Origin: Raillietiella orientalis
Taxonomy: Eukaryota
Assembly (NCBI GenBank): GCA_036172245.1
Contig: JAYWIR010000022.1
Coordinates: 3,038,001 to 3,102,000, forward strand
Reading direction: 5' to 3'
Length of the DNA: 64,000 nucleotides
The first letter of the stretch is position 1. The number at the start of each line of letters is the position of its first letter. This document shows, one piece after another, positions 980 through 47,250 of the stretch. Made by a program: the position numbers and the translations under genes. The notes beneath the pieces were generated by a model. It was not told the DNA's origin. It did no database searches and saw nothing but the letters and a program-made list of their open reading frames with translations.

Positions 980-2078
980 CTTCCCGGCCTCTCCAGGGAA
1001 TCCGATTGCGGTTGAGGGATGTTCCGGTGTCGGAATTCGAGTCAAAAGTTTTGCGGGCCCGGAGTCAAGGGTGGCTTGTCCGTAGTTTCCGGAAAGACTC
1101 CCTTCCCTCTTGGGTGGTAACTCCGCCGCGCGGTCGATCCGGAGCGGTGGTCGGAGCTTCCCCCCCTTCCTCCCCCTCCCCCACCCATCCACCTGCCTCC
1201 CCGCCTCGTTTGTGCAGCCGAAAGCGCTTCCTGCGTGTTCCCCCTTTCGAACACGGGTGGAACGAAAGGAAAGAGCGCGTTTCGTCCGGCCGAATCGAGG
1301 AAAGTTCCGGAGTCTCCTCTTGGAAACGGGAAAGCGCGTCCGACCACGGAGAGTGCGCCCACTGCATTTTCCGTGGGTAGCGGCCCCGAGGCGTTCCTTC
1401 ATCGGGTGTCACCTACGCGGGTGGCGAGAACACGCCGACGGCCTCTCTACCTCATCTGCCAGCCCTGATTTCCGAGACACTTTTCGCATCTGTACCACTA
1501 GAGACGAAGGTCAGTTCACGTGGTGGCAGAGCGTGTTTTTTTTTTTTTTGTTGTTGTTGTTTTTTTTTCTCTCTCGTCTGTCTATCTGCCTTTCTGCCCA
1601 GCACTTAAGGGAGCGCTCCCGAAGCGCCCGTGCATCCGGAGGTCCGAGTGGCACGCATACGGTGGCAAACTTTGCACCCGCGTCCGCGCCGCAGGTTTCG
1701 AAAAAAAAAAAAAAATCCTCCTGTGCATGCACCGGAACACCACGGACTCATTTTCGCCACGGCAGCCGAGCATCGGTCGTCTCTGGGCAGACCGCCCTTC
1801 GTTTTTTTCCTTCCCCTGCCCCACTGTTCGACTCATCTTCCTGCCCGCAATCCTCGTCACAACAGGATGCAGAGGGCTCCCTCCAGCGGACAGTGTTCCC
1901 TTCCCTAACCCTCCCAATTTCTCGTACACATTTTCCCTTGTTTTCACTTTTAATTTTGTTTGCCCCCTTCCCCGCCTCCGCTGCCGAGGCGAACCTCGCC
2001 GGCCCGGCCACTCGGCACGTTCCGAACGCTTTCGGTATTTCACCCGCATTTTATAACAAACGGCCTGGTTATACCACC
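980..2078 (+). mobile_element. Internally deleted L1/Tx1-like LINE remnant (APE endonuclease fragment plus 3' UTR)
   Basis: ORF 883-1380 has GRSGAVV, SSGRIEE and SDH, resembling the APE motifs GGVA, SRID and SDH. The 3' part (cccttccccgcctccgctgccgaggcgaacctcgccggcc, ~1965-2004) matches the 3' UTR of the minus-strand copy at ~16020-16060 (ccccttcccctgcgctgccgaggcgagccccgccggtc). Confidence 0.55.
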
Positions 2079-3249: not shown

Positions 3250-6200
3250 TCTTTTCACCCAGCGAGGACCCCCCCCGAGGTACTCCCTGCAGGAGATGTG
3301 GCGGAAGCATCCGTCCGACGGACCGATCGCAGCGGCGGCGAAAAATCCCGCTTCCAGTGGCCAGGTGCAAGACCGGCGGGCGAGCATCCGGAAAGAAGAG
3401 ACCCCACCGTGGAAATAGGCGTGACCTATTTTTGAAATCGACGGGCGCGAAGGGAGAGTGATAGAGAGAGGGGGGGGGAGGGTTTTTCCGATAACCTTTG
3501 AGTTCACGGTCAAGAAAAAGCCGCTCTCCGTGCTGCGAGGGCGAGCCGAGCAGGTGAAATGTGCCGGGGGAACGTGACCGCCCCGTGCCCGCTCGGAAGT
3601 TGGCGTCCCCCACCCTTAAGTGCCCTCGTCCGGAGCATCCCGGAACGCCGTGGATTGGTGGCGGGGCGGCGTTATCCACGGCTTCCTCCTCCTCCACCTC
3701 CTCCTCCTCTTCTTCGTATTGTGCAAACATTGCGAAATCCTCCTCGCTCGACGGAGGGGCCGCTGTGGGACGGTTCGACCGGACACCCACGTCCACGTCG
3801 GGCGGTGCGAGAGCGAAGGAGGGTGGGCGCTCGCTACTGCTGCGCGCGCGTGCGCAGTCCCAGGGGGGCGCGCTCGGACTCTTCTGTCCAGGGGAGAATG
3901 CAGTCGGCGCGCGCGCACCCCCATGGTGACTTCGCGGTGCTGGCGCGGTCCGCTTGGCTGTCGTCCTCCCAGCTAGAGGAACCACACCTCGGACCGCACC
4001 GCGGGAAGGTACCTACCGAGCCTGGGGCGAGACGGAGGCTTCTCCGTGGGTCAAGCCATCTCTCGGGACACCCTCTCCTCCGTCTGGGCGCGGAGAGCCG
4101 CTTCACCGCCTGGGGCCGGCAAACGACTGGATTCCCGCGAACAGCCTGTCCCCGGAGCGGACTCCTTTCTTGGTCCTGGTCATCCTGGACCTCCTGGAGT
4201 GCTTAAGGAGGGGAGGAGACCGGTCCGCTGCCTCTCGGTAGGCAACGGACGTCGTCCAGGAGAGGGCTGCGCAGCAACCGTCGGCTCTCCCGAGGTCCCG
4301 GGTGTTCCCCCAAACGGAGAGGCAGGTGACGGGGGAACCGGAAATCCCGCGGCCTCGCCTGGACTGAAGTTGCCTGTAGTGTCCAGCATCACAGCGACGT
4401 GGGGAGCAGATCCAGAGGTCGAAGGAATGGTTCCAAGACCCGGAAAGAGGGGAACGCGGGTCCCACTCGATGCGGGCGCGGAGGGGGGGGGGGTTCCTGG
4501 AAACGGTGCGGCAATTCCTCTGGAAGTGTGCGGAGAACGCCCGCTAAGGATCCCGGTCCTTCGTCGCACGCAGTCCCTCCGTTCGCCCGAGAGAGCATCC
4601 TACGCCCGCCTGCGCGAAGGTGGAATGCCCGAAACCAGCGGTTCCGCGTGAGCTCTCGGAGACGTCAGCTGGGGACGCCAGAAGACCGGCTGGAGGTCTT
4701 GGAAAGGCCCTGAATTCGGCTGTGCTCCAGAGCCGTTCCATGAGAATTTGGAAGAAACGGAGAGAGAGAGGAAGGAAGGAAAGGAAAGGATGCTGCTCTA
4801 TGGTGCCAGCTGAGCTGCTGCGAAAGAGGTCTCTCCCCTTTTCGCGGAACAGACTGTTCTCTCTTCTCCCCCTCTCGCGTGGCATTCGTGACCGCGAACG
4901 GGTCACTCCCGAACGGCGGTCCGTCTCCCCCGATCGACGGACGGACGTGGGGAACGGGCACCGCGTCGAGTCAGCCTAGGGACACCTGGCCGTCTCGGGC
5001 AGAGGGATCGGTCCCGCTTCGCTGGAGGCGCTCGGAGCAGGAAACGAGCGACCTCCCGCACGCCTTTCGCTGGATCTTCGCCATGCCTGGAAGGTGCCTT
5101 CCGGAAGAATCGGTCTTGGGTTCATTCCTCCAAGGAACTGACCCCATTTCCTTTCACCTCTTTTCAGTTTCGTGATTTGTATGGTCTGGAAGAGCGCTTT
5201 CCGTTCCCTTCCAGCCCTTCCTTTCCCCCCCTTTTCCTCCTCCTTCCCTTCCCTCTCCCATTTCCCAGATCCCAAGATGCGCAAATTCTCCGACGTTCTT
5301 CCCCGGAATTCTGGAGATAGAGTCCCGAAAACAGGACGCTGAACGCTTCTTCCCGCGGGAGATCGCCTGGGGGGCGCGCGCACCGCGAGAGACTTCGCCG
5401 CTTCCACGCTTTCTGTGTATCGCTTCTGCGTCCGGCCTTCGAGGTCCGGTGCATTCCGCAGCACCGGCGTGCTTTATAGCAGTGACCGAGCGAGTTGTTC
5501 CCTCTCTGGAGAGTGGGCGGACGGACGGGAAGGCAGCGACCCCTTCCAAAAGGAGCAGACGGGGCCGAACCAGTGTCCGCTGATCCCGCTTTCCTCGAAG
5601 GGAGTGCGGTGGGCAGCACTTGACCAGAGACAGTAATGGAACCCGGCTTGGAAGCCGGGCCATCGACGGGACCGGGAAAGACTCGCGCTCCGTTCTTTCG
5701 ACCTCGGACCATCAGCAGCCCTCAAGCCGCATGCACAGGAAAGGAACGTACCAGAGGACAGTGTTTTGTCCGCCCGCTCATATCTTTTTTTGCCCTTCAC
5801 TTGGCTCTCCTTCATGGATGGAGAGGGGGCGGTCCAGGAGTCGGAGAGGCGCCAAGGGCACGCAGGGAGCCGACTCTCCAGAGGCAAATGTTTGCTCGGA
5901 GATGCAGCAGCATCGGAATCGCTTTTGCTTCTGCGAAAAAGTGCTGCTTCTGTGTCGGCTTTCTTAGGGGAAGAAAGGGAGGGGGAGGGAGGAGTAAACA
6001 AACAAACTCTTCGGGGGAATGCTCTCTCCTGAGTCCACCCTGACATCCGAGTTTTTCCACAGCCACATTCCAGTGACTGGTCTGTTCTCGTGGGGCATTT
6101 CGAGGGTGACCTCTTTCCAATCCGAGCTGCAGGTGTCACGTAGTGTCCCCCCCCCTTCCCAATCCTCCCACTCGCTGGTTCGCTTGCCGCCAGCGGTGCC

Positions 6201-7900
6201 ATGGCAGGAGTCTTCACATTTCGGCACGTTGCCTGAACGTCGGTCGCTGCCCGGGAGTGCTCGTCTACCGGTTGGCTCTTGTTCAGCTCCCTGTTCATCC
6301 CGTGCTAAGCCGCCAGCCCCTGTTCCGTCCTTGCAGGAGGGGAGGGGGGGAAGGGGTATAAGCGGAGACAGAGACCGCTTCCCCGTCCCTCTCCGTCCCG
6401 AGAAATCCGAACCCCTTCTGGAATTTGGCTTCCACTCGGCGTTGCAGCTCCTTGAACCAGACGACACTTCGATAGCCTTGGACCGCCCAAGTTCCTGAGC
6501 ACCACTGGTTGCCTCTCGCCTCCCGTCTGTTTCCTGATCCCGTCGAAGGATCTTCGAGCGTCTGTGCGGGATCGGTGTGGGCATTGATGGTGGGAGAGCT
6601 ACCACCCGAGGGACGGGAAGCCGCTTCGGTTGGCCGCGAGTGGCTCGCTCGTGGACGCACGGTAGCGCCTACCCAGCCATGGGAGGAAAGCGAAAGGCGT
6701 CTCCGAAAAAGAGGAGGTTCCTAAAACTGTGAGGGCAGAAAAGGAACAGTCGTGGAGGAGGGGGAGTTAAAATCTACGTGGAGCACTCGAAAACTCTTCT
6801 CCCTTCCCTTCTCCATCTCATCTTCCCGTTGCTGAGAATCATCCTTCTTGCTCGCTGCGGTCCGCGATGCTCTGGGACCGACGGAGGTGCACCCGCTGCT
6901 CCGAGGATTGCGCCATGAGGCACTCCAGCCCCCCTGTGGCTTCGCGCCTTTCCCGAAGCTCCCCCGCAGGCCGACGTCGCTTTCAGTAGGGGATCGGGAC
7001 TCCCTGTCAGAAGCGACGACGTCAGGTCCCTGGGTGGGAATGGCCTCCTCGGGAGCACGCTTTCGCGGCAAAGGCGGGATCTTTGGCGACACGGACCCTC
7101 GCCGCCTCTTGACACGTGGAACCCACGAGAGCGTGCGGACGCCTTGCCGTTGGACCTGTAGGTCGTGGTTGTCATCGGGGCCGCGGGCGCCTTGTTGCTT
7201 TCCTGGTGCTGCTCAAGGCCGATCAGGAGGATGAGGAACTGCCCGCACGTGGCTCGCTGCTCCTCCAGGGGTCGAGACAGAAGGAGTGCTCCACGGAATA
7301 GGCGACCCACGCAAGCCGGGAAGCAGCAGCCGACCCGCGAAGACGCCTGTCTCTGAGCGCGGACGCGAGAGCGCCTTCCTACTCGTGTGGCAACCGAAAG
7401 CAGCGCCAAGTCCCTGAACTGGTTGTCCGAATCGCGGCAACGGATGGTCTGGATGGCACGGTTCTCCAGCGCTGGGAGGACTTGGAAAGTGGGAAGGGAC
7501 GAGAGGGAGGCTGCAGTTTGGGGTCGCCATACCGGCTTCCGAGGCGAGACAGGGGATTGAGAGAGTCCAAGGGAAAGGAAAAGGAGGAGGAGAAGAGGCG
7601 TCCAGGTACTCGAAAAGAGAGCAGCTGGTTTGCGCTCGGGGGTCCTCTGCCCCGGGGCACAGCGAAGAGTTCGCATCAGTGCAACACGTTGCTTCGAAGA
7701 CCACGTGGCTCCGCAGGAAGCCACCACTTCGGAGATCGGAAAGGGGGAAGATCCACTGCCGGCAGGAGTGGATCCACGAAGACGCACCTGTGGTTCCGAA
7801 AAACATACCAGGGGGCACACAAGTCCCTTAGACTCCCAGCGCCTCGAAGTTCGAAGCTTCGCCATCTCTGGGAAACCGCGAGGTTCGAGAATTTCCTTGG
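3250..7900 (-). mobile_element. Decayed LINE 5' half (Pro/Ser-rich ORF1-like region, possible start of endonuclease)
   Basis: Minus frame ~5450-5720 reads GRKNGARVF...KPGSITVSGQ...CYK..CCGMHRTS, resembling the Tx1-type ORF1 pattern G..NG.R...P..I.V.G followed by a zinc knuckle. It lies directly downstream of the junction motif at 7911-7939. Boundaries are uncertain. Confidence 0.4.
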
Positions 7901-7910
7901 AAACCTGAAT

Positions 7911-8750
7911 CTTCGTCCAGTCACGCCGGGGTGTTTATTAATGAGAAATAAACCCTAAAACACACTGGTTCCCGACCAAAGACAAAAGAATTTCAGGGGG
8001 AGGGCCTGCCGTCATGCAGGTCGGGACACCTAAAAACAGGGAACAGAAGGAAAGGGAAAACAAATAAATAAACAAAGGGAGCATGGAGACAGGGTTTGCC
8101 GGTGTCGGCCGTTCCGTCTTTCTGGAACCGGCGAAGAACCACCGCAGCGGGTCGTGGGCGGTGTCCTCCTGGGTGCAGTAGCGTTGGAGTCAACCAGCCT
8201 CCGCCACAGTTCCTGGAGGACGCTGCAATCCAAGAGCAGATGCGGGTCGACTCCGTCGATCCTCACCTGGCACAGTTCGGGGATGCAACTCCCCCGGAAA
8301 AGAGGGTGCAGGCGTTCATTGCATTGGAGTTCCCAGTGCAGGAACATCAGCACCTCCCGGTTTCATGTCACAGGGAACACGGAAGAGTTCGAAAGCAAGG
8401 GAGGGACCACGAGTTCCTCGGAGGCGTCACTCAACAGTTCCGGCAACCGAAGGAGTCTTTTCGCCTGGATGCGCAGAGCGGCAGCATCCGCCAACTCGCG
8501 CGTATTCCAGTCGCCCAGAAGTTTCGTCTTTCCTGCGACGGTGCTGAAGAGCTCCCTCTTCTCGGTAAACAGCTGTCGTCGCTTGACTTCGGGGCAGACA
8601 GAGCTGCGGCGGCAGATGTGGCATCCAGGGTGGACAACTTAGTCGAGTGCTGCATCACTGTTTCCAGAGGATGGCTGGAAACCTGCAAGAGGAGCAACGG
8701 CGGGAGGAAGAGAACGATGGACGTTGCGCATCCAGAAGCGAGAAGCGTAG
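7911..8750 (-). mobile_element. LINE ORF2 C-terminal zinc-finger fragment plus 3' UTR
   Basis: EELVVPPLLSNSSVFPVT*NREVLMFLHWELQCNERL...C...HLLLDCSVLQELWRRL, then a T-rich UTR and AATAAA (7934-7939, minus). It is homologous to the copies at ~11070, ~11900 and ~16500. Confidence 0.75.
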
Positions 8751-8769
8751 ATGAGGACGTCGACAGATG

Positions 8770-11300
8770 GAATCCGTGAGGATAGAGGTCGCTCCTTCGA
8801 CCGGATTCCATCGTGCCGGTAACCCGCTGCGAATGGAGCAGGAAGACTCCCAAATTGGTTCGAAATTGGCTAAAGTGGGACGCGCTCAGCGATGGTGCCA
8901 ACTTGTAAGCGACAATCAAGGAAACCAAAAGTGTTCCGTCCTCCTTCTCGCCTCTGGCGCACTGTCTTTTCAGTTTGGAACTGCTTCCAGGTCGGTACCA
9001 TGGAACGGTACGGAGGATGAGACGCTGCTGCTTCTGTGTTTCTTTTAGCATAATTTGGACGAAGAGCAAGCGGGACATGGATTACCGGTTCAGGAAGGAT
9101 TCTGCGACCGAATCCTCTTCTATTCCTACCTTCTCTAGCGAAAGACGCGTCTCTTGGACATCTGGAAGGGATAGAGTTGCCAGACCGAAGCTCCTACGGG
9201 ACCACTCGAAAGGAGAAGGTCACCTTCAAGCAGATAGTGTTCACATGTGACCTCCGGCTCCGAGCGTTCAAAGAGAGGCGGTTTTTAAAGCTGGAAACTG
9301 ATAGTCCAATCTGACGATCCCAGAGGGCATCCTGGGTATCCTGCATCTTCGAGGCACTCCCTGCTTTTCTTTTCTGACACCCCCTTGCTTCTTGGGGGGT
9401 CCCTAACCACACGTCTTCGTTTCTCGGATCTTCGAGATCTCAGAGGTCCTGCAGCGGTTGTCCTTGCAATGATGGGCAGAGTCGGTCCTCCACCTCCCGT
9501 TCTTCCAGCTCGCCTCTTCCGACGCTGTCCGTAAGCGCCTTCTCGTAAGAGGGGGAGACGTCAGCATGCTGGAGCACGGAAACTGGTTTCCACTTTGGCT
9601 CTGCTTCCTGGACGGTTTTGGTTGAAGATCACCAGCTCCCATTGTTTCAAAGGTCAGACCTCTCGACCTGGGTCAGAAACTCGTCGTGTCTACCCGCATC
9701 CGTGGCCCGGCTGTTGAGAACATGACCCCATACGGTTCTTCCCATTCTCTTCACTTTCCTCGCAGGCGATGAAGCGGGCTCGTTGGCGCGACATCCGCAC
9801 GGGCTGGCGGTCCAGTCCTGCCTCGAGAACGAACCACCAGTGCGAGGCGTCTCCTCCCTTTCTTTCCTTGCAATCCCTTTGGAAACATTCCTGCGTGCGT
9901 GCAGCATTGGAGCAGAACACAAGCTTGAGCAATTGATCCAGCGGAACCAGGAACTGTTAAGCGGGAACGCGTCTCGTCCAGGCAGAAGACTCTGAGAGAG
10001 GGATCCGCCTGTTTCCAAGGAGATGCAAGTTTCCCAGGAGATCTCTCGGGTTGCGACTCGGACATTGGCAGAGCAGAAATTCCGACGCGTTCCGGAAGCG
10101 TCCGGCAAAGTTCCATCTTTGCCTCAGGAAACGCAAGTCGCTCGCGAATCCCGATGAGAAGTTTCTCAGGGAAGCTCGGAGGCAAACTGCCAAGTGTCCG
10201 TGGAAACCATCCTTCCCCAGAGGTTCGATGGTGTGCTGTCGCCGGCTGCGGCCTGTTGCATTCGGGGTACGTGATCAGCTGATAGGGAAAAAAGAGCCTC
10301 CAGGGTTCCTCTCCCCGGAACGAGCTGGCATCCGCGTGCCTTCGGGATAGCGTCGTCCCTTCGAAGGGAACCCACGAAAACACAGAACGAGCCAAGAGAT
10401 GCTCGGGAAGTCAAGAGGAGCTCCAGCAGAAAACGGGCTTGTAGGAGAAGGAGGATGGGAACCGCATGCGAACACGGGAGGCCGAGGAACTTTACCCACG
10501 CGACGCCAGCAGCCCGGACTAGGCCTTGCACCTTAGACCCTCCCGGGGATGAAGCGAACCGCCTTGGTTCCCCCTCCCCGCACCCTTCTCTCAGCTTACC
10601 CTGGAGCTTCGCCAGATTAGACGAAACTCTTGGCGCCATCAGGCACATCGCGGTAGCGGTGTTCCACCTGGACACGGTTCTGGAGGACGACGCTGGACGC
10701 GTTCTCTTCCTTCTCTCCACGGCAGGCCAAGTTTCGCTGCGTCTGAGATAGAAGAAGAACGGGGTCCTTCGAGCGAATGAGGAGGAGAACGCACAGCGGA
10801 GCGAACGAGTTCCTCTCGCGAGGAATTGCCGCTGGCGCTCCGAAACCGCCCACCCCCTACCCTTCCTGGACTCTGACGCGTTTGGCTGTCGACCCGGAAG
10901 GCGTAGACAGCTCAGCCAGATGGAGCTTCTGCGAAGTCATCCGGACGATTCCTGGAACGGTGGCGGTGGAGGAGGTGGGCAAGTGGGAAGGAACGTCCCT
11001 CGAGGATTCAATCCCCTGTGTGTGGTGGACACCTCCGTGTTCCTGCTCTGGTGGAAGAAGCAGGGATGTTCTGCCGTTTCTTCACTGGGGATTCCGGTGC
11101 AACCAGCGCAGACGCCTGGTTTCCGGGGGAGCTGCCTCTCCGAACTGTTCCAGGTGCGGGACGATGGAATCTCTACCGCACCTCCTAGTGGACTGCGGTG
11201 CCGCCGAGGACTTGTGACGGAGACTCCCTTCGGAGCTCCGTCAACCGCAGGACGCCGCATTGGACACGCCGCGACGCTTCTTCACCGGAGGCGGACTGAA
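8770..11300 (+). mobile_element. Decayed L1/Tx1-like ORF2 (RT and C-terminal zinc-finger remnants)
   Basis: SLSFLAIPLETFLRAC (~9855-9900) resembles RT LSPLLF.I.LEP.LR. RLGHWQSR lies at ~10055. FLHWGFRCNQRRRLVSGGAASPNCSRCGTMESLPHLLVDCGAAEDL* (11078-11217) is a zf-RVT-type CxxC...H...C motif. The 5' boundary is weak. Confidence 0.7.
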
Positions 11301-11312
11301 GAAGAGCGCTGT

Positions 11313-12800
11313 GATTTCACACCTGGGTGCGCAGGGGCGTTTATTTTGCTTAGGGAAAATAACGTTTACAGGAATCGATGGAGCCAAACGGCCCACCGAT
11401 TCCAATTATTACACTCAAAAAGGAGGGGGCGAGGTCAATCGCGTCCACGAAGGGGAAAAAAAAGGAAACAAAAATAGAAAAAAACGAAACAAACCATAAA
11501 AAACAATACAAAACTAACAAAAAAAATTAGTTGGGGGGGAGGGAAAGGATCACATTTCGTCGTGGGTGAGACGTTTTATCCGTTGAAGGATGCCTGCGAG
11601 TTCCTCCTTCTTCCCTTCCAGGTAGGACCACCTCGAAGCTATCCGCAGGAAGCGGATGGCGTGCAGGACAGCCCATCCTCCGCTCAGGCCTCTCTCGGCG
11701 TCGCACTTCGCCGCAACACCGCGGACGCAGCACAGCGCTGCGATTGCGGCTGCGGGCGTCATGGCGTCCCGCACGAAGAGGGGTCTCAAAAAGTCTCTGG
11801 GATCGTATACGGAGTGCGGAAGGGACACAGAGAAACGTTCCCACAGTTCCCGGAGACCGACACACTGCACTATGAGGTGGAGGAAGGTTTCCTTCTCTCC
11901 ACACCTGGCACACTTCGACGATGAGCTTACCCTCGTCCAGTGGTGCCGGCGCGTATTGCACTGGAGACCTCAGTGCAGTACCAGCTGCCATCGATTGCTG
12001 CCAATTGAGGGGAAGCAGCTCACTGTCCGGAATCACAGGGGGCACTTCGAACTCTTCGGGCTGAATGGAGAAGAGTTCGTCCCAACGTTCCAGTCCTTTG
12101 GACCGGTTGTTGCTGCTGTTGCGACAGCCAGTTGATGCGTAGTACAGCCAGCGATAGGCTTTCTGAGGGGCCGAGATCTCGCAGGAAACCTCCCACTTCG
12201 CCGGTAGGCAGGTGCCATGTAACTCGATAGCGAAGAACATCGCGACAGCGAAGGGGGTGGCTGCTGGGTAGGCTAGTACAAGTCAGCTTATTATCCCAAG
12301 CCTTCAATGTTCTTCCACTGTTCTTCTGAAACTCTTGGCAGAAGGTAATTTCTGGCAGCGGAGTCCGGGTGAGCTGGGCCCACATCCTCACTTTCTCCTC
12401 CGCCAGGCCGAAGTGTTCACAGGGAGGCATGAAATCCACGTGTTCGCTCTCTCCAGAGCAGCGACACACCGGAGTGGGAAGCCGCAAGATGGGAGGGGGC
12501 GGTGGCGGCACGCAAACAGGGTTGCGAGTCCTTCGCCACCGATCGCCAGCCAGGAGAGCAAATGTGCAGGGAAGCACCGATGGTTGGCCGGTACAGTTCT
12601 GTGCCATGGAGTTCAGTTCAGCCTTCTGAAGTTCAGTTGAACTTGAGAAGAGTGGCCCAAAGCTCCAAAGTCAGGAGTCCAAGTCCTCCGTCTGGACGAA
12701 GAGCGCACAAGTCTTTCACTCGGACCCGGGACCTCCCATTTCCCCTGGGGGCTTTTCGAAGGAGACCCTTCGTCCTTTTCACTACACCGGGGGAAGACCA
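11313..12800 (-). mobile_element. LINE ORF2 3' portion plus 3' UTR (best-preserved copy)
   Basis: DLCALRPDGGLGLLTLELWATLLKFN* (~12633-12712) matches the post-RT GGLG motif. QLVLH*GLQCNTRRHHWTRVSSSSKCARCGEKETFLHLIVQCVGLRELWERF (~11835-11990) and RFLRIASRWSYLEGKKEELAGILQRIKRL follow, then a T-rich UTR and AATAAA at 11340-11345. Confidence 0.8.
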
Positions 12801-12809
12801 GACACTATG

Positions 12810-13227
12810 ATCGCAACCATTTGCTGCATCCGCGTCACAGTGACGGACTGCTATGTGCTGGAGTCAGGTTTGCGGCGGAGGCCGCTAGCATGGCAGCAGC
12901 CCTCATGAAGACAGAAGCAAAGTGGCCTCATCTTCCAAAAGAAGTCGCCAGAGAGATCACCAGCGTCCAGAACCGCTTTTAGAAGGAATGGAACGTCTCG
13001 TACCAAAGACTCCTGTCCCCATTCTGCCATCTTTTTTATTTATTTATTGCCTCTTCCCTTCTTTCCTACTTTTGGGAATTCGGCCTGTGTGCCAGCTGTC
13101 ATCCCGGATGGATTTTGTTTTTGGCATTTCTCGTTTTTGAGAGATTCTTTTCTTCCCTTCTTCCTTGTAGTCTGTCTGTCTGTTTTTTTCCAAAATAAAC
13201 GTCCCAGCATGACCGGATGAAAACCCG
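12810..13227 (+). mobile_element. LINE extreme 3' end fragment
   Basis: LMKTEAKWPHL aligns with FLRIASRWSYL and FMRTASGWPHL of the other copies. The UTR resembles that at 7990-8130, and AATAAA at 13194-13199 is followed by the junction motif. Confidence 0.7.
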
Positions 13228-13679
13228 AGGATCCAGAAGCATCAGAGAGGGGGTTGCTGGCAAAATGAGACTCTAGTCTGAAAATTCCGAACTAACTTGT
13301 GGGAAATCATCCATCGGAATTGCGGCGGGCGCATGTCCGGGCAAGTCTTCCCCAATGAGGTGCTGATCCCGTCCTTCCTGCCTCGACCACAGGCATTCCT
13401 GAGGCTGATGTCTCAGAAATGCCTGTGGAGGCAAACCGGACAGCATGATGGACCCATGTTTGTCGCGCAGAGGGAGGAGTGCGCGTTCGAGTTGGCGTTG
13501 AGTCTACTGGCTATCCATAGAGGTTCCAGGGATCTGGGTTCCGCCCTTTTCTTAGCAGCGAAACAGGAAGCGAGGTACTTGGGAGTTTCGCGACGGAAGT
13601 CGCATCCTTTCTTGAGAGCTTGTTGCTGCGGCCTTCATCTTCTGGGGTTTCCCCGATGAGCTGGGTCTTTCGGCTGACG

Positions 13680-14320
13680 ACGAGGCCTCCGTCTGCGTGC
13701 GGAAACGAGGTACTCGGTTCCTGCGTTTTCCTTCGCTCCGCGCGCCTCTGCTTTTACAGGAACCAGAGCACCTCTTTCGCGTTCGACCACTGGTGGTCCA
13801 TCTGACCAGTTCGTAAGACATTTATGAAGGAACGGGGAGGGAGCATCTGTCAGCTGCTCTCCTGGTAAAGCACCTCGTGTTCATTCTTTGAGAGTGAGCT
13901 GTATTGCACTGTGGGCCGCGTTCGAGGGCGCGTGGTGACGCCTAAGTGTGAGCTGAAGACATTCTGAAGCGGCAGCGATAGTCATTTTTGCAGAACGTGC
14001 TGGATCACCTTTCTTCCTCGGCTTTACTCAGAAACACAGATGGCTCGTCTTGGATTTTGGAATGCATGGGAAGCTATCCGGTTCCCGAAGTTCTATCGCA
14101 ACTCAACAGATCTGCTCCGAGATCCCTCCTTTACTGAGGTTGTCTTGAGATGTCATGCGGGCCGTTGCAACGCGCTCTAGAGCCCCCAGCGCGGGATGCC
14201 CAGTCATCTTGGCATCCCTTTATCGGACACCGGAACACTTCTCTTTCTGCTCACGCTCCTGGAGGTCCCTTGGGTGGCCAGGGCTGATCGAATCAGCGAC
14301 CAGCAAACGAAGCGTTTCTC
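13680..14320 (+). mobile_element. Decayed APE endonuclease fragment of a LINE
   Basis: Across frameshifts and in the expected order: AETR, GRVV, LGFWNAW (GD[FW]N-like), then FSF...ARADRI (SRIDRI-like). Confidence 0.45.
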
Positions 14321-14419
14321 AAATTGGAGCAGCAGATGGCAAAGAACAGGAAAGGAAAAGTTGCTGAAACGCACCCATCCCTCTATCGTTGAGAGAGCAC
14401 GTAATCGTTAGGAGAAATG

Positions 14420-14770
14420 CCTACCAGCAGGATTACTGGATGCGAATGCGGAAGCACACTAAGAGCACCTGGGCTTCTCCAATGGGCACAGGAGTTTCAA
14501 AAACCCGTCTTTCCCGGTGCTGAAACGTGTGGCCGTCCTTTTCTTGGTGTTCCCCTCTTGCAGCCGAATTCCTCTCGCAAGGGAAGTGAAGGTGTCCCTG
14601 CAAGGAACCTTTCCTTGCTCTTTTGGGGAAGGCTCGAGGCTAGCATGGCCCTTTTCGGTTGGTCCAGGCAGGATACCATCCGCCGAACAAATCGCGGGAA
14701 CCCGTGTTTTTCAGAGAGACCATGGAGCGCACGTGTCAGGTTCCCAGTTTCGACGGCCGTTCGGCTAACC
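14420..14770 (-). mobile_element. Decayed non-LTR RT fragment
   Basis: LSEKHGFPRFVRRMVSCLD...F...GCKRGTP resembles RT L.K.GF...F...I..LY and GVRQG.P. Confidence 0.45.
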
Positions 14771-15894
14771 AAACTGGAAACGAATCTCCCCTAGAGAAGT
14801 CACCGAAGAAGGCTATTTCTTTTCGGGTTCTCTTCGGTGACTTCGGCGAGGTGGGGATGAGGACCCCTGGAAACGGAGCGCTGCAAATCTTGCCGCAGCG
14901 CGCCAACTTCAACTCCGCGAGCGACAAGGCGAAAGAACGGAAACGGCGAATTTGAGGAAGAGGTCGGTCGGTTGGATGGACACGGGCAGAAACCTCGTCC
15001 AAGAGGGGCGAGACCAAGCAGAGGAGAGGAAGCTGCTTAGAAAAGAGAGTGAAAAGGAGAGAGAGGCCTCCTGGAGGCTGATGAATCCGGCCAACGAATC
15101 CGCCATGCTAACCATCGGCAGCTGCCTCAAGTTGCTCACTTCCGCAGACAATTCGGTAAAAAGACCGGCCCAAGAAACGCTTAAAAAAGTGATCCAAAAG
15201 AGAATCCTCGAACCACCAGCAGACGAGGATCTCGAAGAATTCGTGACGGGGAACTTCGGAAAAACTCCCACAGGGCAGCAGGGATATCGAAAGTCTTTGG
15301 TTTAAAGGAAGGAGGGCGTGGAGTAGGACGAAAAGCCTGCTGGGAGTTTACTGATGGAGAGAGCGTAGCGTAGCGGTCGACGGCATCATCTCCGTCAGCA
15401 GCACTAGGAAAAAGTTTTACCTCCGGCGTGAGGCTGTATTAAGGGAAGACTTTTGCCGCGCGGGGCCTCCAGGGATCTTCGAGGCAGCTCCAGAGAGGGA
15501 GGGAGGAGCGACGGCACCTCAGGAGATTAGGAGAAACTCTCCCCCAGGCCACAGCTGACGTCCTTCTTGCGACGCTACGAGACGCGAGGCTAGCGCACGG
15601 GTCACTCAGGTGCAGGGAGAGGTGGGCAGTCGCACCAGCACTGGAGGGAGACCCTGCGGCGGGGGGGAAAGGCTAGCCACCGCAGGGCATGTCGTCAAAC
15701 CCCGCAATCGGGAACCGGAGGAAAAGAGGAACGCCGGAGGATGGAAGGTGAAGCGACCTGCTTTGGGAGCGGCTGCCTCCTCGATCCGATCCGACGCTGC
15801 TGCCTCCCATGAGGCGACTAGAGACATCCGTTTGCGGCGGTTGTCTCCGACGACCAGCGACAAGGGTAGGGTTTGCAAGCGCGTTCAGCGAGGA

Positions 15895-17230
15895 CGGGTT
15901 GACACCCTGTCACGCCGGGGCGTTTATTTATACAAAGTAAACATACTCTTCTGTGGCAGGACTTTTGATCTGCCAGGTTACTTATAACTAGGAGAAGGAA
16001 CCTGCTAGAAACTGGCACGCAGACCGGCGGGGCTCGCCTCGGCAGCGCAGGGGAAGGGGAGACAAACAAAAAGAAAAAAAATAAAACATAAGCATACATT
16101 AAAAAAATGGGGGGAGCAGGCTCGGGAGGGGATCACTGTGTGATGCAGGGCGTTCTCTGCATCCTTGCTGCGCTGTGGGCAAGTTCCTGTTTTATGGTTC
16201 CCAGATGTGGCCATCCTGACGCTGTCCTCATGAAGAAGAAAGCAAAATAGATGACGTCTCTGTCGTTCTGGCCTTCTCTGGCGGTGATCCATGCAGCCAT
16301 GATCCCGCGTAGATAGCAAAGTGCTGCTAAGGATGCGGCCGGAGTGATGGCTTCGTGTAGGAAGAGGAGCTTTAAAACGTCTCTGGCGTTGTCTCCGGGG
16401 GTTCCAAGGGTCGCAATAAAGCGTCCTTAAAGGAGCCGAAGGGAATGCAGTCCACTTGGAGGTACGGAAGGAATTCCCGCTCTCCGCATCTTGCAAAGTT
16501 CAGGTTCACTCCCTTCTCCCGTGTCCAGTATGCAGGTGGGCGTTGCACGGGAGATCCCATTGCAGCAGCATCAACGCCGACTCCTTCCACTTTAAGGGGA
16601 GGGTACTTATATTCATGAGCAACTGCAGGGTGCTACTGAAGGTCTTCCTCGGAAATATCCAGTAGCACGCCCCAGTGCAACCGTCACGAAGTCGAGCAAT
16701 CGGGGTCGCAGCGACGGTGAGCTGGCCTGTCGTCCACTCGCCCAGTCTTTTCGCCCTCCGGAGATCTCCACAGTAACCCCCCATCTGGCCGTAAGGATGC
16801 TGCCAATGTGCTCCCTAAGGAAGAGCAGCGCGGCGGCGAGAGAGGTTCTGCTTGCCCACGCACTCTTCACGGTATCTTCCAATCTCCCGGAACGTGCAGT
16901 TGTTGCGCGCGTACAGGAAACGTCGCACCTGTTTCGCCCTTGGTTCCTGGATTCTCGCCCACGTGCGAACGATTTCCTGCAGCCACGCACTACCGTTCGC
17001 AGGACGACGTGAGATCCATGCTTTCTTCCTGGCCAGCGTGTTCATCTGCCGCAGGTGCAGTGGAGGAGACTGCGTGGAAGGAGCGCAAGGAAGGACGCGA
17101 GTCCCACGCTGACAGTGGCTTGCTTGACGAGGAGACGTGAAGGTTGGCATGAGGTGGTGCTCCATACGGTTGCCACGAGGACAAATGTTCGAAACTGGAG
17201 TTGCAGCTCCATCCGCTCCAGCGTCAGGAG
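15895..17230 (-). mobile_element. LINE ORF2 3' portion plus 3' UTR
   Basis: LPLKWKESALMLLQWDLPCNA...ARCGEREFLPYLQVDC (~16445-16605) and FFMRTASGWPHLGTIKQELA (~16178-16237), then a T-rich UTR, AATAAA at 15923-15928 and the junction motif. Confidence 0.75.
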
Positions 17231-20175
17231 ACCTGGACTCAGCGAGGACGGAAGAGAGGGGAAACGAGTCGGTCCAGAACCCCTGAGGCGCTGGTGGCGC
17301 GGAAGCCCGACATCGTCTGAAGGCGAATGAATGAGCGGGCTGTGATCACGAAGGAGGACAACGGGAGACCAGAAAGACGCGATGGCGACGGCTGATTCCC
17401 AGTGTGGCTAGCAGGCCATCCGCGGCCTTTCCTTGCGGGACTCCCCGGCACCACCGACGCAGAGACTCTCGTGAGTGCAGCAGCGAGTAGCTTGGGTGCA
17501 AGGATACTGGACGCACCCCCCCCCCCCCTTTTTTTTATTTTGAAGGGGAGGGGAGAAAGAAGAGGAGGCAACACGCCCACATGCAGTGATAGGCGAAGAG
17601 AAAATGGAGCTGCGCGGGACTTTCGGGAGAGCGGAATGAGCCTTAATGGTGTCCCTCGGGCGTGACCGACTTCCAGCCTTCCAGTTCGATTTCCAGCCGA
17701 ACCACACGGTCGTGACGGCCATGGCGCTTCGTCCTCCCGCCGCTTCTTGAGTGTCACCATCGAGGCGGCGCGCGTTCCGGCGAGGGCGCGCTGCCCGCCT
17801 GGAACGGCGCGGTAACAGCGCGGAGTGAACGTGTAAGGCGCCCGCGGGAGAACTCTCGTCCGCCGCCCCGCAGCCCCATCGTTTCCTGGGGAAAGGGGGC
17901 TAGGCGGAGACCGCGCAGTCCCGGAGGCGCCGAAAGAGCCGAGGTCCCGCGGCCTCAGGCGCCGGGAGCACCGGCCGGTCGCATTCCTGTCTCCCGTTTT
18001 TCTCGAGTGTCCTCTCCTCTGCCTGCGAGGCGAGCACCAGGGATGCTCAGACCGCGAGAGCGGACCCCCAGTGGAAAGGGAACGGGGCTGGATCGGGGAG
18101 AGGAGGGTAGCTGCAAAAGGGGGGCAGAGGAAAGGGCAGCGCTAGCGGCGACCTTGGCGGAGAAGAGGGGGAGATCCTCGCGCGCGCAAGGGAATGAGGA
18201 AGACGCAGCCTCGCTCCCGAGATCCCCCCCTCCCTCCCTCCTCTCCCAGGCGCACTCTGGGATGCGGCGGAGGCGCCGCTGGTGGTCAGAATGCGCGTTC
18301 CCCGCAGAGACTGGGAGGCCGCCCCTCGGGAGCGCCCCCAGTCCATTACCACAGAGTCCATGCGTAGCCGCGGGCGAGGCGGGAGACGGAGACCCTAGAG
18401 ATCTGTAAGCCTCCACTCAGGCGAAGACTCTACCTGGGGCTCTCCGGAGGCTGCATCCCCGTAGCGTCCCGGAGCGTGAGCATCGCGGGGACAGAGCCGC
18501 GAGCCCATCCGCCCCCCTGGAACGGAAGCTGGGTGTCCTTGGGAGTGGCTGGCAGAGAGGGGAAGCGGAAACAGAAGGAAAAAAGCCAAACGGCAGGTGG
18601 CCCCAGCGGCAGTCTGCGCGACGACCTCGCGCGCCTGGAACCTCGAGGTTGCCTTCCCCTCGCCGCCTTCGCGGAATCTGCCCCGCTCCAGGGAGGCCAG
18701 GGCGCGGGCAGATCTCAGCAGACTCTGGGCTCGGGCGCGCGGAAGCAGCCTCCGCTGAGGACCCCAGAAATGGAAACCGTTCTCAGCACCCAATCCTGGG
18801 TTGCTGCCTCCGCCGGAATCCACTGCTCCCTTTGCCCTTGGAATGGGGAGGAAAGCAGGGAATTGACAGGTCCAGTTCTTCGTTCCAAAGCTCTTTTCCC
18901 TTAGAGGGGAACGACCTTCCGCCTCCTGATGCTCACCACCTGTTTCCTGCGGCGGCCCAGGCACCGGGGTTGGTGCAGGTGCACCCGTGTTCGTGCATGC
19001 CCTTTTTTCAACTGCGACTCGCAGTCTGCCTTCCATCGAGCATCCCTCTGGACACGATATGGGAGCACCTGCAGATGTAAGCGTCCTCCCTGGCCAGCCT
19101 TCCCCGCATACAGTCGGTCTTCCTGGTTCCCGCCCAAAAGTCTTGGAGTCTTCGAGCGGGCAGCTCTTGCGGGTGAATTGCAAGAGCTGCCCGGAAGCCG
19201 CTGAAGACATCACCCTCGAGTTTCGCTCCGCTCGCGCGCGCTTCCAGAGCCCGCCAGGTGACTCCAGGACGGGAAGGGGAAGGCGACGAATTCTTGAGGG
19301 CTGCGCGCAGCTTCGTTCCGTCTCCAGCGAACTGGTCGCATTGGCTTGCGTCGGGACGTGCACTCGCGAACGACGACGCCTCCCTCCGGGAGCGAGCAAT
19401 CGCATCCTGGACTCTGAGCGACGGGTCTGGCAAGAAGCTGGAGACGGCTAGGGGTCGGGAAGGATTTTTTTCGCCTTTCCTTCGCTGCCTGCGCCACTGC
19501 AGGCATCCGTGCATCGCGCCTCTTCCTCCGTGCTCGGCGGATGGAGATTATCTTTCATTTCCTGGCGCATTCCGACCTGGGAGTTGGTCAAAAGTTTCTG
19601 TTCTGCCAGCACGACCGCGCTCGCAAAAGCAGAGCATTCGTTGTGACCTTGGCGACCTGATGATAACGCGGTGATGAATCGGGTTTTGCCTGATGAAAGC
19701 AGAAGAAATTCTTGCAACATAAGTATGAACGAAGGTGTACAGAATGGCGGTGCGCTCGCGCGCGCACACGCACACACAAAGCAACACAACGAACTTCTAA
19801 AGATGCCAAAAAATGAAAAATGAAAATCACCAGCACTCATCGTCGGCAAGAAGCAGCGGCTGGAGGAACGCACTCTCAGAAAGCGAACGAGGCTATCGTA
19901 AAGGGGAAAGGCAGGCATCCCATTTGCCATGGCCTCGTTCACGCTTCGAAAACGCAGTCCTCCACTTCCATCCGAATCTTTCCAGATTCACGATTTTCCC
20001 GCATCTTTAGGGGGTCCGCTCCGCGTCCGATAAGTGCAAACCAAGCGTTCTCGATCTAGTGGACACCTGATCTTTGCTTGCCAAAAAAAAAAAAAACAAC
20101 GGCACAAATACGTATACGCTACGATGTACTTCGTTCCCCTTCCCCCCGATTGGAAGAGGAAAAAAACTTTCTTGA

Positions 20176-27029: not shown

Positions 27030-28851
27030 CATTAGGTAAATCCATAAATGATGCTGGCAAGCCTTCCCTGCGACGCATTCTGGAAGCGCGCGTGCCCCTT
27101 TCCCCCACGTTGCAGGCGAGCTTTCAAAAAATTTCAAAAAATGGGAAAAAGTCACGAAGCTCCGCACCCAAAGTTTGCCTCCGAAACTCATCTTTGGATA
27201 AAAAAAAAAAAAAAAAATGAGATTTTCATTGATCAGCGGCATTTGTTTCTGCGCTTTCCGTGGTACGTGCGCGACGCTGCGGAAGAACTTTGACGAAACA
27301 CGAATCGGGGTAGTCAGTCGGGATCACGGGATGAGACATCAGCAAACTTGGAGAGAACTAATTACTTTCCATGCGCAAATCGCCCGGAACGTGAAAAAGA
27401 AGCTGTATGGAGCATTCTCTTGCTCAATGAAGCATTTCAACGAGACCGAAAAAAAAGCGCTGTCGGTGAAAGAAGTCAAGTTCGAAGGAGAGAGAAAGAG
27501 ACATATCGTATCTACTACTTTATCATGGTCTTGATCTAAATGGGTGTGTCTAAGTTTACGGGTAAATCCGAATTCAAAAAATTACGACGTTGACTAATCG
27601 TCAGTCTTTTGACACGTACTAATTGTGCAACCGCACTTTGAGCATGGTAGTGTTTTGGGTGCGGTTCGTTTTCTAATTGGCGAATCAAAACATTATTAGT
27701 CCGTCCGAGATAGCTCAATGTATCGATTAGAAATTCCGTTCGAAGATGCATTTGTTTATTCTTCGAGGTGGATACCCAGCATGCGCTCTTACAAGGGATG
27801 CTCATCGTCAGGAAAGGTTTCTTCCCCTGCTGGGGCGGATCTGAGGAGCGGAGGAAAACCGATCTGCAGCCTGGGTGAATTGCAGGAGAAGGATGTTTGC
27901 AGGAGAACGAAAAATTTCCCTGGTCCAGAAACTCTTGTCCCCAAAGATGAAAGTCAAGTCTTGCAGCAAGTTCCCAGAAAAATTTTTTTTCCCCTTCCCC
28001 CTCCCCCTCCCTCCCTCCCTCTCTCCTCCGACGTGTTAATAGGAGATTGATAGTTCTTTACAAATCTTCCTAATTCAATCAGAAAATGCTAACTGTTTCC
28101 TTCCTACGGAGGTGACCTTGACCAATTCATGCATTTGTTCTACAATCACGGAAATAAATGTCTTGATCACTGTGATTTTCGAAACAGTTCGCCTTCAACC
28201 CACCAGTTTACTTTCCTATATTACGTAATGCTAATCGTCGTTTCTGTAATAATTTTTTTTTTTGTATTAAGAGCAAATAATGTTGATCTGAGACGTCAGA
28301 TGCTATTAGACAGGAAGGTGTTTCGCCACTGCTCTAAGAATCTGTCGTGGATTGAAGGTTCCCGAATTTTTATAAAAAAGATACAAAAAAAAAAAAAAAT
28401 GGGCTTAAGACTGCTTCGATTGAAGCAGCAGAACGGTTCCAATCCTCGAGCTACAAGATCGCAGTCATCGGTGGAGGGTGGCTGCGATCCTGTATGATCT
28501 TGTAGACGGCCAGGATCGGAAGTCGACCTCCGAGTTCTTCCAGGAAGCAGAATCCAGGAGTGAGCAGTTCCTTTCCGGTTGTTCAAAGGAGAGGACACCT
28601 CTTCGGGTGGGGACCCTCCGTCTCCTACCATGGTGTACGGGTGTTACGCCGCTCCAGAGTGCTTTCCGAATTTTCCCTTTTGAGAAATTTCGGAAACGGT
28701 TCCTTCGCGGTTCTCTTCAGAGGAGTAAACAGGGGCGGTTCCCTTCGAGGGTCCCCCCGGAGAGGATAACGAAGGAGGATTCCCTTCGGAGACAACCAGG
28801 GTGGGAGGTGCGATCCCCCCGTCCGGGGGATCCCTCCCCAAGCGTGAGAGG

Positions 28852-29370
28852 AACGGACTCCGAGCCCTTCCTGGATTCATAGGGCGGACCCTCCCATCCC
28901 GGGGTGCCCCCTATCCTGAAGAATTACACTGAAGAATTACACGCCCCCCTGCGGGTTGCCGCGGGCGGAGGGGCGTGGAAACAAAACAGTGTGTTAATGT
29001 TTAAAAAGAGCCACGTGCGCCGCGAGGCACGCGACCGGCTCTGAGGTACTTAACGAACCAAAAAAAAAAGAAAACTCTTAAAAAAAAAAAGCTGAAAGAA
29101 AAACAGCGAAAAAAGAACCCAGGCGCGAGAGAAACGGACTCCGCAGCCCTTCCTGGATTCATAGGGCGGTCCCCCCCCCTCCCCAGGGCACTCCCTACCT
29201 TGAAGAATCACACGCACCCTCGGGTGGCGTGGAACCATGTTAAAGAGCTGCCTGAGCCGCCAGGCGCGCGACGGCTCTTGAGGTACTCAGCGAGCCAAAA
29301 AAAAAAAGAAAACCCGAAAGAAAAAAAAAAAGACCGGAAGGAAAACAGCGAAGACAGAAAAAGAACCCGG
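28852..29370. repeat. Diverged tandem duplication (~270 bp and ~240 bp units)
   Basis: Units 28852-29123 and 29133-29370 share aacggactccg, agcccttcctggattcatagggcgg, tgaggtact and the A-rich tail ending aaaaagaaccc. Confidence 0.9.
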
Positions 29371-29479
29371 TAGGATTTTCATCGGTGAAGGGGATGAAAT
29401 ATCCATCTTGCGGCGTACCTCCTTCCATCGGACACGCTTCATCCGAGAAAACGGAAGACCGCGAGCACTCGTCTGTGAC

Positions 29480-46849: not shown

Positions 46850-47250
46850 CAGGCTCTGATTCCTAAGAAAATAAGCCGCAGGGAGTTTCTCAAGATGAAA
46901 GGATGATTTGAAAACTAAAACGGAACTCCATAGTTCAGAATATGGAGCACATCTAGAAAAGCGTCTGAACTTAACGTTACTGCAGGATTCAAAAATGCGT
47001 GTCGAACCTCACATCTGATAGAGAATTCCTAAGAGTGGTTCAAAACTTGGGATGCATTGCCAAGAGACATCACACGTAACGGGAAACTCGATGGATGGCC
47101 TCAACGGAAAGAGTAGGACCGAGTCAAAGATGAACTGATGAGCGATAAAGGTGAACACTAAGTGAATCCATCAGTCCACCCATGGATTTAGATTATCCAG
47201 GTATCTTCTTCAAGCGAACGAACAAAAATCATAAAAGAATACTTTCATTT
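46850..47250 (+). mobile_element. Decayed Ty3/gypsy integrase remnant
   Basis: LIP...ELHSSEYGAHL (H..GH.G-like), then TSDREF...LG and DG...ER-like segments across frameshifts. Confidence 0.4.

What the first reader, a model, noticed from the sequence alone, without database searches (positions are those of the whole stretch)
7911..15928. LINE family whose 3' ends carry a conserved ~33-nt motif instead of a poly(A) tail, suggesting head-to-tail or self-targeted arrays
Seen: four diverged LINE 3' ends finish with the same motif: aataaacaccccggcgtgactggacgaag (7939->7911, minus), aataaacgcccctgcgcacccaggtgtgaaatc (11345->11313, minus), aataaacgtcccagcatgaccggatgaaaacccg (13194-13227, plus) and aataaacgccccggcgtgacagggtgtcaacccg (15928->15895, minus). 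None is followed by poly(A), and the motif looks better conserved than the upstream UTR. Three are followed by same-strand 5'-type remnants: an ORF1-like region below 7900, an ATG-led MSLVASWEAAA stretch at ~15830 and an EN fragment at ~13700. Known: Tx1-clade LINEs are often sequence-specific, and HeT-A/TART form head-to-tail arrays. Inference: the motif is either a conserved 3'-terminal RT-recognition element or a 3'/5' junction of a tandem-arrayed or self-targeting family.
Basis: partly seen in the sequence, partly recalled or inferred. Interest (0 to 1): 0.7.

Follow-up and report, generated by a model that had tools for sequence, protein, structure and literature searches.

The report
Hairpin-ended LINEs that target their relatives
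The motif is the exact, poly(A)-less 3' end (AATAAA, a small hairpin, four bases) shared by a whole group of L1-like jumping genes, many of which insert at their own fixed spot inside related jumping genes; it is not a head-to-tail junction in this window.

Summary
The four motifs are real. A degenerate version has 1,746 genome matches (control 0). Target-site duplications (TSDs) start 30 nt after the first A of AATAAA, so the motif is the element's 3' terminus: AATAAA, C, GC hairpin, four bases, no poly(A) (A-run ≤4 in 219/223). It closes L1-clade LINEs (intact copy: CCHC ORF1, APE-RT-zinc-finger ORF2). In the window, TSDs show that the 'downstream 5' remnants' are interrupted host DNA; one host is an R2-like element on the opposite strand. 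One copy sits antisense inside another at its family's recurring site. Genome-wide, about ten of 16 families prefer one position in sibling LINEs or in a tRNA-derived SINE; one has 95/102 ends on target or in dimers. Head-to-tail dimers exist only as a by-product of re-insertion (22/102; 7/81). The endonuclease lacks about 17-20 residues around the L1 target-probing hairpin. Stringent 3' stem-loops, Tx1 targeting of other transposons and Zepp nesting are known; coding-motif cross-targeting was not found in eight literature searches. This scan already found the hairpin end, the cross-targeting and the short endonuclease on other DNA of this genome.

The parts
7910..8675 (-). Copy 1: 5'-truncated L1-clade LINE (ORF2 from about aa 947, UTR, terminal motif)
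   Evidence: blastx and profile hits to ORF2; bounded by a TSD
7910..7939 (-). Terminal motif of copy 1 (30 nt, decayed)
7898..7909 (-). 3' copy of the 12-bp TSD of copy 1; the 5' copy is 8676-8687 (11/12 identical)
11316..12799 (-). Copy 2: 5'-truncated LINE (family N, from about aa 804), inserted antisense into copy 3 at ORF2 aa ~1141, the recurring site of this family
   Evidence: same site in 5 of 8 N-type ends seen by eye
11316..11345 (-). Terminal motif of copy 2
11369..11403 (-). Upstream family-specific hairpin (H1) of copy 2
   Evidence: predicted fold
11012..11315 (+). Copy 3, left part (ORF2 aa ~1057-1141); ends in a degenerate TSD (11307-11315, 7/9 identical to 12803-12811)
12803..13223 (+). 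Copy 3, right part (rest of ORF2, UTR, terminal motif); reading frame continues the left part
13194..13223 (+). Terminal motif of copy 3; candidate TSD 13224-13236 / 10999-11011 (10/13, weak)
14841..15302 (+). Host: decayed R2-superfamily (restriction-like endonuclease) LINE fragment, region after the RT domain
   Evidence: 93 other genome matches; homologous to L253/L254 ORFs; L254 ORF matches R2 proteins, E 5e-10
15899..17238 (-). Copy 4: 5'-truncated LINE (family B, from about aa 839), off its family's usual SINE target
15899..15928 (-). Terminal motif of copy 4
15885..15898 (-). 3' copy of the 14-bp TSD of copy 4; the 5' copy is 17239-17252 (13/14 identical)
15954..15975 (-). Upstream family-specific hairpin (H1) of copy 4

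Best explanation
The motif is the 3' end of a genome-specific radiation of L1-clade LINEs that work in the 'stringent' way. Shown: the inserted DNA ends four bases after the hairpin's GGGTG; a 9-16 bp TSD follows; there is no poly(A); the hairpin stem is shared by all families while loop, last four bases and an upstream hairpin are family-specific; many families prefer one site, mostly inside sibling LINEs; dimers are separated by one TSD. Inferred: the RNA is cut and tailed after AAUAAA, ORF2p grips the terminal hairpin and starts cDNA at a fixed distance from it, so that at most the first one or two A's are copied; the endonuclease, which lacks most of the L1 groove-probing hairpin, nicks a family-specific sequence that is best matched by conserved codons of relatives; because left flank plus TSD survive at the 5' junction, a second copy can insert there and make a head-to-tail dimer.
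For: TSD found at 71 of 223 sites versus 13 with a control query; first TSD base fixed (base +3 after GGGTG matches the 5' flank in 8/66, +4 in 29/66, +5 and +6 in 59/66); A-run ≤4 in 219/223. Inserts with TSD range from about 40 nt to full length, all with the same end. Intact element L057; best solved relative human L1 ORF2p, E 3e-45, R2 2e-13. Stem constant, loop variable, one family extends the stem by a pair. Fixed targets: A antisense aa 65-66 (11/23), C antisense aa 498-499 (7/16), D antisense aa 1080-1082 (13/33), E and K antisense aa 308 (5/14, 3/12), J antisense aa 281 (2/5), F sense aa 165; B antisense in a tRNA-derived SINE (20/35). Genome-wide by eye: F 73 on target + 22 dimers of 102; A 59 + 7 of 81. 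Independent events: same site, different 5' truncations with TSD for B, C, D, G; empty and filled sites coexist (F site 25 full-length, 4 other, 20 empty of 49; A site 17, 2, 36 of 55). One dimer traced by coordinates on C26: 856114, 861988, 867903. Precedent for loop-specific hairpin binding by ORF2p: PMC4176376.
Against: No RNA or activity data: binding of the hairpin and the way the RNA end is made are inferred. The terminal stem hardly varies, so it shows no compensatory change (0 of 7 pairs). Specificity is uneven: G has 2 of 21 on one site, H 0 of 4, and D, C, E, K are mostly off their site. Off-target sites share only about 4-9 bases with the preferred site, which seems too little for 80-90% targeting in A and F, so a further determinant is missing. 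TSDs of copies 2 and 3 in the window are degenerate. Family names are my own labels from UTR patterns; 17 of 223 sites were unassigned.
Confidence: 0.8

Rival explanations
1. The hairpin makes the RNA end rather than being read by the reverse transcriptase: a structured, non-polyadenylated 3' end, in which AAUAAAC may pair with an upstream U-rich tract, and copying simply starts at the last base.
For: Fixed end and no A tail; AATAAAC can pair fully with the upstream 30 nt in 64 of 222 sites versus 0 in a control segment; an upstream stem of ≥7 bp in 128/222 versus 33 (UTR control) and 68 (downstream control); one compensatory pair in the C/D/K clade, UA 16 / CG 11.
Against: The pairing of AATAAAC is absent in C, D, E, K, G, yet the hexamer stays invariant and about 22-24 nt from the end, the usual spacing of a poly(A) signal (recalled); the last two bases are nearly always AA. 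The single compensatory pair may be one inherited event.
Confidence: 0.25
2. Target choice is helped by RNA: read-through transcripts from on-target copies carry the target sequence after the hairpin and pair with the nicked strand, so each family inherits its site.
For: Endonuclease lacks the loop that sets selectivity in L1 (PMC1950540); very high on-target rates in A and F; mismatches between TSD copies cluster at the first two bases (13/126 versus 0/126 at the next two), and the 3' copy has the family's usual base in 7 of 13 against 2 for the 5' copy. Co-transcription with the target is mentioned as strengthening specificity in PMC4494074.
Against: Off-target sites also resemble the preferred site on the left of the nick, which RNA cannot read; the edge excess may come from my TSD finder, which tolerates edge mismatches; the one case of 'same endonuclease, different target' was a single chimeric copy.
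Confidence: 0.15
3. The recurring sites are copies of a few composite loci spread by segmental duplication or as one unit, not repeated targeting.
For: Most F and A on-target copies are full length and sit in near-identical hosts on a few repeat-dense contigs; some loci are plainly duplicated (L023/L024).
Against: Different truncation points with their own TSD at one site; D hits the same codon in P, E, C, G, J and B-like hosts; A fills at least four sequence variants of its site; dimers. Duplication can still inflate the A and F counts.
Confidence: 0.07
4. The motif is the 3'/5' junction of HeT-A/TART-like head-to-tail arrays.
For: 22 of 102 F ends and 7 of 81 A ends are followed by the family's own 5' end.
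Against: A TSD lies between the units; no arrays longer than two were evident in the listed coordinates; none of the four window copies is followed by a 5' end; matches are spread along contigs.
Confidence: 0.04

Closest known systems
Stringent L1-clade LINEs: monocot 1a (LINE1-1_ZM with ZmSINE2/3) and L1-1_CR (PMC3472496)
   Same: L1-clade elements whose last ~45 nt are far better conserved than the rest and fold into a hairpin.
   Different: There the stem varies with compensatory changes and partner SINEs share the tail; here the terminal stem is nearly invariant across ≥15 families, AATAAA precedes it, the end is fixed, there is no A tail, and no partner SINE was identified.
Stringent L2-clade LINEs UnaL2, ZfL2-1, ZfL2-2 (PMC4176376)
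   Same: 3' stem-loop with constant stem and family-specific loop; model for ORF2p binding.
   Different: Different clade; those tails end in short tandem repeats; several families here share one loop sequence.
Tx1-clade target-specific LINEs: Tx1 in Tx1D, Tx1-Mar in Mariner-N4_AMi, Tx1-8_Crp and Tx1-4_AMi in LTR elements, Tx1-9_AMi in Harbinger; SINEU-3 tandems sandwiching a TSD (PMC4494074)
   Same: APE-type LINEs that prefer a site in another transposon; tandem copies separated by a TSD.
   Different: Targets there are DNA transposons, LTR elements, RNA genes or microsatellites; here they are conserved coding positions of sibling LINE families, a different one per family.
Zepp and Zepp-like L1 elements of green algae (PMC8226300, citing Higashiyama 1997)
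   Same: L1-clade elements inserting into existing copies and building nested clusters of 3' ends.
   Different: One family nesting in itself, one cluster per chromosome, Zepp ends in poly(A) (PMC3472496 table 1); here many families cross-target at base-pair-fixed sites and copies are also dispersed.
Human L1 endonuclease (PDB 1VYB, 7N8K; PMC1950540)
   Same: Same fold (Z 25.7, rmsd 2.3, 211 aligned) and catalytic motifs.
   Different: About 17-20 residues shorter around the betaB6-betaB5 hairpin, whose removal much reduces L1 activity.

Membership tests
L1 clade (L1/Tx1 group) | ORF1 plus ORF2 with APE endonuclease, RT and C-terminal cysteine motif | tested here: met
   L057: zf-CCHC in ORF1, Exo_endo_phos and RVT_1 in ORF2
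L1 clade (L1/Tx1 group) | RT closest to L1-clade proteins | tested here: met
   Best solved relative L1 ORF2p; 25 genome RTs form one clade (0.977) inside a 0.98 clade with frog, lizard and tick proteins among 144 sequences
L1 clade (L1/Tx1 group) | TSDs and 5' truncation (TPRT signature) | tested here: met
   71/223 versus 13 control
Relaxed (mammalian-type) L1 | Poly(A) tail at the 3' end | tested here: not met
   A-run ≤4 in 219/223, longest 6
Tx1 clade | RT grouping with named Tx1 elements | not testable with these tools
   No named Tx1 among the 120 listed hits, best identity 34%; sister group unresolved, support 0.26-0.39
Tx1 clade | Target preference (one target type in >20% of flanks, the criterion of PMC4494074) | tested here: met
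   Met by A, B, C, D, E, F, K, J; not by G (2/21) or H (0/4)
Stringent-type LINE | Conserved 3' stem-loop | tested here: met
   covariation absent in the terminal stem
Stringent-type LINE | Stem-loop needed for retrotransposition and bound by ORF2p | not testable with these tools
   needs assays
Stringent-type LINE | Partner SINE sharing the tail | tested here: inconclusive
   The SINE targeted by B was not followed to its 3' end; unassigned ends were not resolved
Zepp-like L1 | Insertion into existing copies | tested here: met
   into sibling families; same-family hosts not shown except dimers
Zepp-like L1 | One cluster per chromosome (centromeric) | tested here: inconclusive
   Young A and F copies crowd on some contigs, but ends are dispersed on C1; no chromosome map
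HeT-A/TART-type telomeric arrays | Long polar head-to-tail arrays at chromosome ends | tested here: not met
   dimers only, interior positions
HDV-like or hammerhead ribozyme | Match to Rfam ribozyme models | tested here: inconclusive
   no ribozyme family at E≤1 in the window or E≤5 in seven loci; divergent ribozymes can be missed

The most novel reading that the evidence does not exclude
A guild of L1-clade LINEs shares one RT-docking hairpin but has lost the endonuclease loop that reads the target, and picks its sites inside relatives' conserved codons partly by pairing of read-through RNA with the nicked DNA, i.e. an RNA-assisted, re-programmable targeting in an L1-type element.
Probability: 0.15. 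Interest if true: 0.85.

Novelty: new variant of a known kind. Interest (0 to 1): 0.62.

Why it matters
It offers about ten closely related LINE families (endonucleases 46-66% identical to L057's) with one shared RNA end, different precise targets and intact young copies: a ready panel for asking what sets target choice in APE-type retrotransposons and where reverse transcription starts when no A tail is copied. It also gives a base-pair explanation of how LINE-only islands build up, and a case of transposons using each other's conserved codons as safe or competitive landing sites.

Tried and rejected
RNA evidence: no run was listed for L054:1000-8000, so no reads were laid. Metagenome scan for the motif: 0 matches. 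Rfam: nothing meaningful. A TSD candidate for copy 2 at 11734-11745 (11/12) was rejected because ORF2 similarity runs straight through it. 'Same endonuclease, different target' (L243 versus L244, 97-98% identical up to aa ~510) was rejected: L250, with L244's target and 3' half, has a different 5' half, so L244 is a single chimera. My propagated label 'F targets C' was wrong; the hosts are K-type, 98-99%. alone suggested that most F copies are tandem; its last pattern letter excluded the single on-target class, recovered. Host segments 6000-7897, 8688-10998 and 13224-14800 gave no Pfam, PDB, atlas or protein-database match; RT-like motifs that I see there by eye are recalled, not tested. ARAGORN at relaxed score gave mostly noise; the SINE call rests on A-box and B-box-like sequence in the alignment. 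Placement as Tx1 could not be tested. Literature searches for LINEs targeting sibling LINE coding sites found none.

Full report
Observation. Each closes a 3' fragment of ORF2 and a U-rich UTR. In the window a 12-mer core has 4 perfect matches against 0.99 expected with one mismatch allowed. In the genome (G000, 210 Mb) an exact 20-mer has 454 matches and a degenerate pattern 1,746, both with control 0; these are lower bounds, since copy 1 of the window does not fit the pattern. Mean identity between representatives of 16 families is 0.90 in the motif and 0.55-0.63 in UTR and ORF2 segments. That figure is biased by how I chose sites, but a search on UTR plus AATAAAC alone returned the hairpin in 72 of 73 listed ends (by eye).

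The element. Locus L057 holds an intact copy: ORF1 of 636 aa with a CCHC knuckle, ORF2 of 1,201 aa with APE endonuclease, RT and a cysteine motif, a 326-nt UTR, then the motif. The best database relatives are at most 34% identical in RT; the best solved relative is human L1 ORF2p (E 3e-45; R2 2e-13). In a tree of 144 RT sequences the 25 from this genome form one long-stemmed clade (0.977) inside a 0.98 clade with frog, lizard and tick proteins; the sister group is unresolved, and no named Tx1 was available.

Where the element ends. Among 223 non-redundant ends in the fetched loci and the window, 71 have a TSD upstream, against 13 for a control query taken 60 nt further on; 65 of the 71 are 10-16 bp. 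With 66 TSDs in register, the third base after GGGTG matches the 5' flank in 8, the fourth in 29, the fifth and sixth in 59 each. The element therefore ends four bases after GGGTG, 30 nt from the first A of AATAAA (31 in family K). The A-run there is at most 4 in 219 of 223 and never above 6. Inserts from about 40 nt to full length share this end. The stem is constant, the loop varies, and family K adds a pair; the stem shows no change on both sides. Upstream, a family-specific stem of 7 bp or more occurs in 128 of 222 ends (controls 33 and 68), and AATAAAC can pair fully with an upstream U-rich tract in 64 of 222 (control 0), but not in C, D, E, K or G. No ribozyme model matched.

What follows the motif in the window. 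Copy 1 (minus, 8675-7910) has a 12-bp TSD and copy 4 (minus, 17238-15899) a 14-bp TSD, each with one mismatch, so the sequence after them is interrupted host. Profiles of this group's ORF1 and ORF2 find nothing below 7900, at 13700 or at 15830. The plus-strand ORF 14841-15302 has 93 other genome matches; two of these were fetched, and they are homologous to it; the ORF of one matches R2 proteins. MSLVASWEAAA is thus read on the antisense strand of an R2-superfamily host. Copy 2 (minus) sits inside copy 3 (plus) at ORF2 aa ~1141: the frame of copy 3 continues across it, with a degenerate TSD (7/9). Five of eight ends with this family's last bases lie at the same codon position (by eye). The TSD of copy 3 is weak (10/13). 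The remaining host DNA could not be named.

Targets genome-wide. Families (my labels, from UTR patterns; 17 of 223 unassigned) prefer different sites, numbered on L057 ORF2: A antisense aa 65-66 (11/23), C antisense aa 498-499 (7/16), D antisense aa 1080-1082 (13/33), E and K antisense aa 308 (5/14, 3/12), J antisense aa 281 (2/5), F sense aa 165, in the codons of the GDFN motif. B lies antisense in a tRNA-derived SINE in 20 of 35. G has only 2 of 21 on one site (the UTR of C) and H none of 4. Larger lists, counted by eye, give F 73 on target, 22 dimers and 7 others of 102, and A 59, 7 and 15 of 81 family-A ends among the first 100 of 138 matches, 19 rows being dropped as not family A. Hosts are other families: F in K-type copies (98-99%), A in a J-like element (96%), in an unlabelled family (98%) and once in D; D in P, E, C, G, J and B-like copies. 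The events are independent where it can be checked: one site, different 5' truncations, each with its TSD. Empty sites coexist: among the first 100 rows, the F site is 25 full-length, 4 other and 20 empty of 49 places, the A site 17, 2 and 36 of 55. Duplication may still inflate the A and F counts.

Head-to-tail copies. They exist, but as dimers with one TSD between the units; on C26 the 5' junction, tandem junction and 3' end lie at 856114, 861988 and 867903. Left flank plus TSD survive at a 5' junction, which explains re-insertion. Of 85 listed matches on C1, 80 are more than 50 kb from its start.

Endonuclease. The spacing between the GDFN and SDH motifs is 63 residues in L057 against a median of 83 in 58 database relatives. 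Relatives with short spacing keep the TW...RLD segment, which all 12 full domains from this genome lack. The model (pLDDT 93) has a short helix there and no hairpin and matches L1-EN best (Z 25.7). In L1 this loop matters for activity and selectivity (PMC1950540). Earlier notes differ on whether the loop or a connector is lost; I could not superpose residues.

Mechanism. Shown: fixed end, TSDs, no A tail, family-specific sites, dimers. Inferred, at about 0.8: ORF2p binds the terminal hairpin, as in ZfL2 (PMC4176376), and starts at a fixed register on a transcript processed at AAUAAA; the endonuclease nicks a family-specific sequence best met by conserved codons of relatives. Open: off-target sites share only about 4-9 bases with the preferred site, too few for the rates in A and F. 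RNA-DNA pairing would fill the gap; mismatches do cluster at the first two TSD bases (13/126 versus 0/126), but my finder favours edge mismatches, the left flank is also conserved, and a seeming natural swap was a single chimera.

Comparison and novelty. Hairpin-ended L1-clade lineages (PMC3472496, first third of the text read), Tx1 families in other transposons with TSD-separated tandems (PMC4494074, passages and section 15), and Zepp nesting (PMC8226300, passages) are known. PMC1950540 and PMC4176376 were read as passages; other papers were seen only as listings. Eight searches found no report of LINE families each targeting a different conserved coding position of sibling LINEs. The library lacks most subscription papers and Repbase, and the supplements of PMC4494074 were not read, so precedent may exist. 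This scan noted the hairpin end, the cross-targeting and the short endonuclease on other DNA of this genome; I had reached each from my own calls before reading the matching notes, and they are not independent support. Verdict: the motif alone is a variant of a known strategy; with the target network it is an unusual and directly testable system. Interest 0.62.

Noticed in passing
L054, L057, L052, L055: first 15 nt of full-length copies: Families A, C and F start with a shared short motif, GTGC(A/G)GACGTG, a possible internal promoter element; likeness to initiator/DPE motifs is recalled, not tested.
   Followed up: no
alignment A2, columns 25-48 (C, D, K, P families): The element upstream of AATAAA can be drawn as an H-type pseudoknot; one pair is UA in 16 and CG in 11 of 29 sequences.
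   Followed up: partly
L014, L162, L168, L171 flanks; window about 28550-29380 and 44970-45310: A tRNA-derived SINE-like repeat of several hundred bases, the target of family B, with related pieces in the window; its 3' end was not defined.
   Followed up: partly
window 14841-15302; L253, L254: A multi-copy R2-superfamily LINE (93 other matches) hosts copy 4; in L253 and L254 such elements abut L1-group fragments in antisense.
   Followed up: partly
L243:3694, L132, L152: A K-type family inserts in sense near the end of ORF1 of another family, a second sense-oriented target besides F.
   Followed up: partly
L244: Chimeric copy: 5' half 97-98% like one K-type family, 3' half like another, switch near aa 510; suggests recombination or conversion between nested copies.
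   Followed up: yes
G000 contigs C26, C33, C53, C72, C74, C76 and contig starts: Young, full-length, on-target A and F copies crowd in dense nests; most 5' junctions at these sites are full length (25 of 29 for F, 17 of 19 for A), unusual for LINEs.
   Followed up: no
window 1864-2004: A further small ORF2-end fragment of the same LINE group (69-82% to other copies).
   Followed up: no
window 46000-64000: Sharp drop from about 58% to 30-37% GC; an uninterrupted eIF5A ORF at 49936-50526.
   Followed up: no
window 41363-42247 (-) and 34177-36321 (-): Long stop-free frames, one with a 12-nt tandem repeat (41615-41681) coding an SYGM-type repeat; not examined.
   Followed up: no
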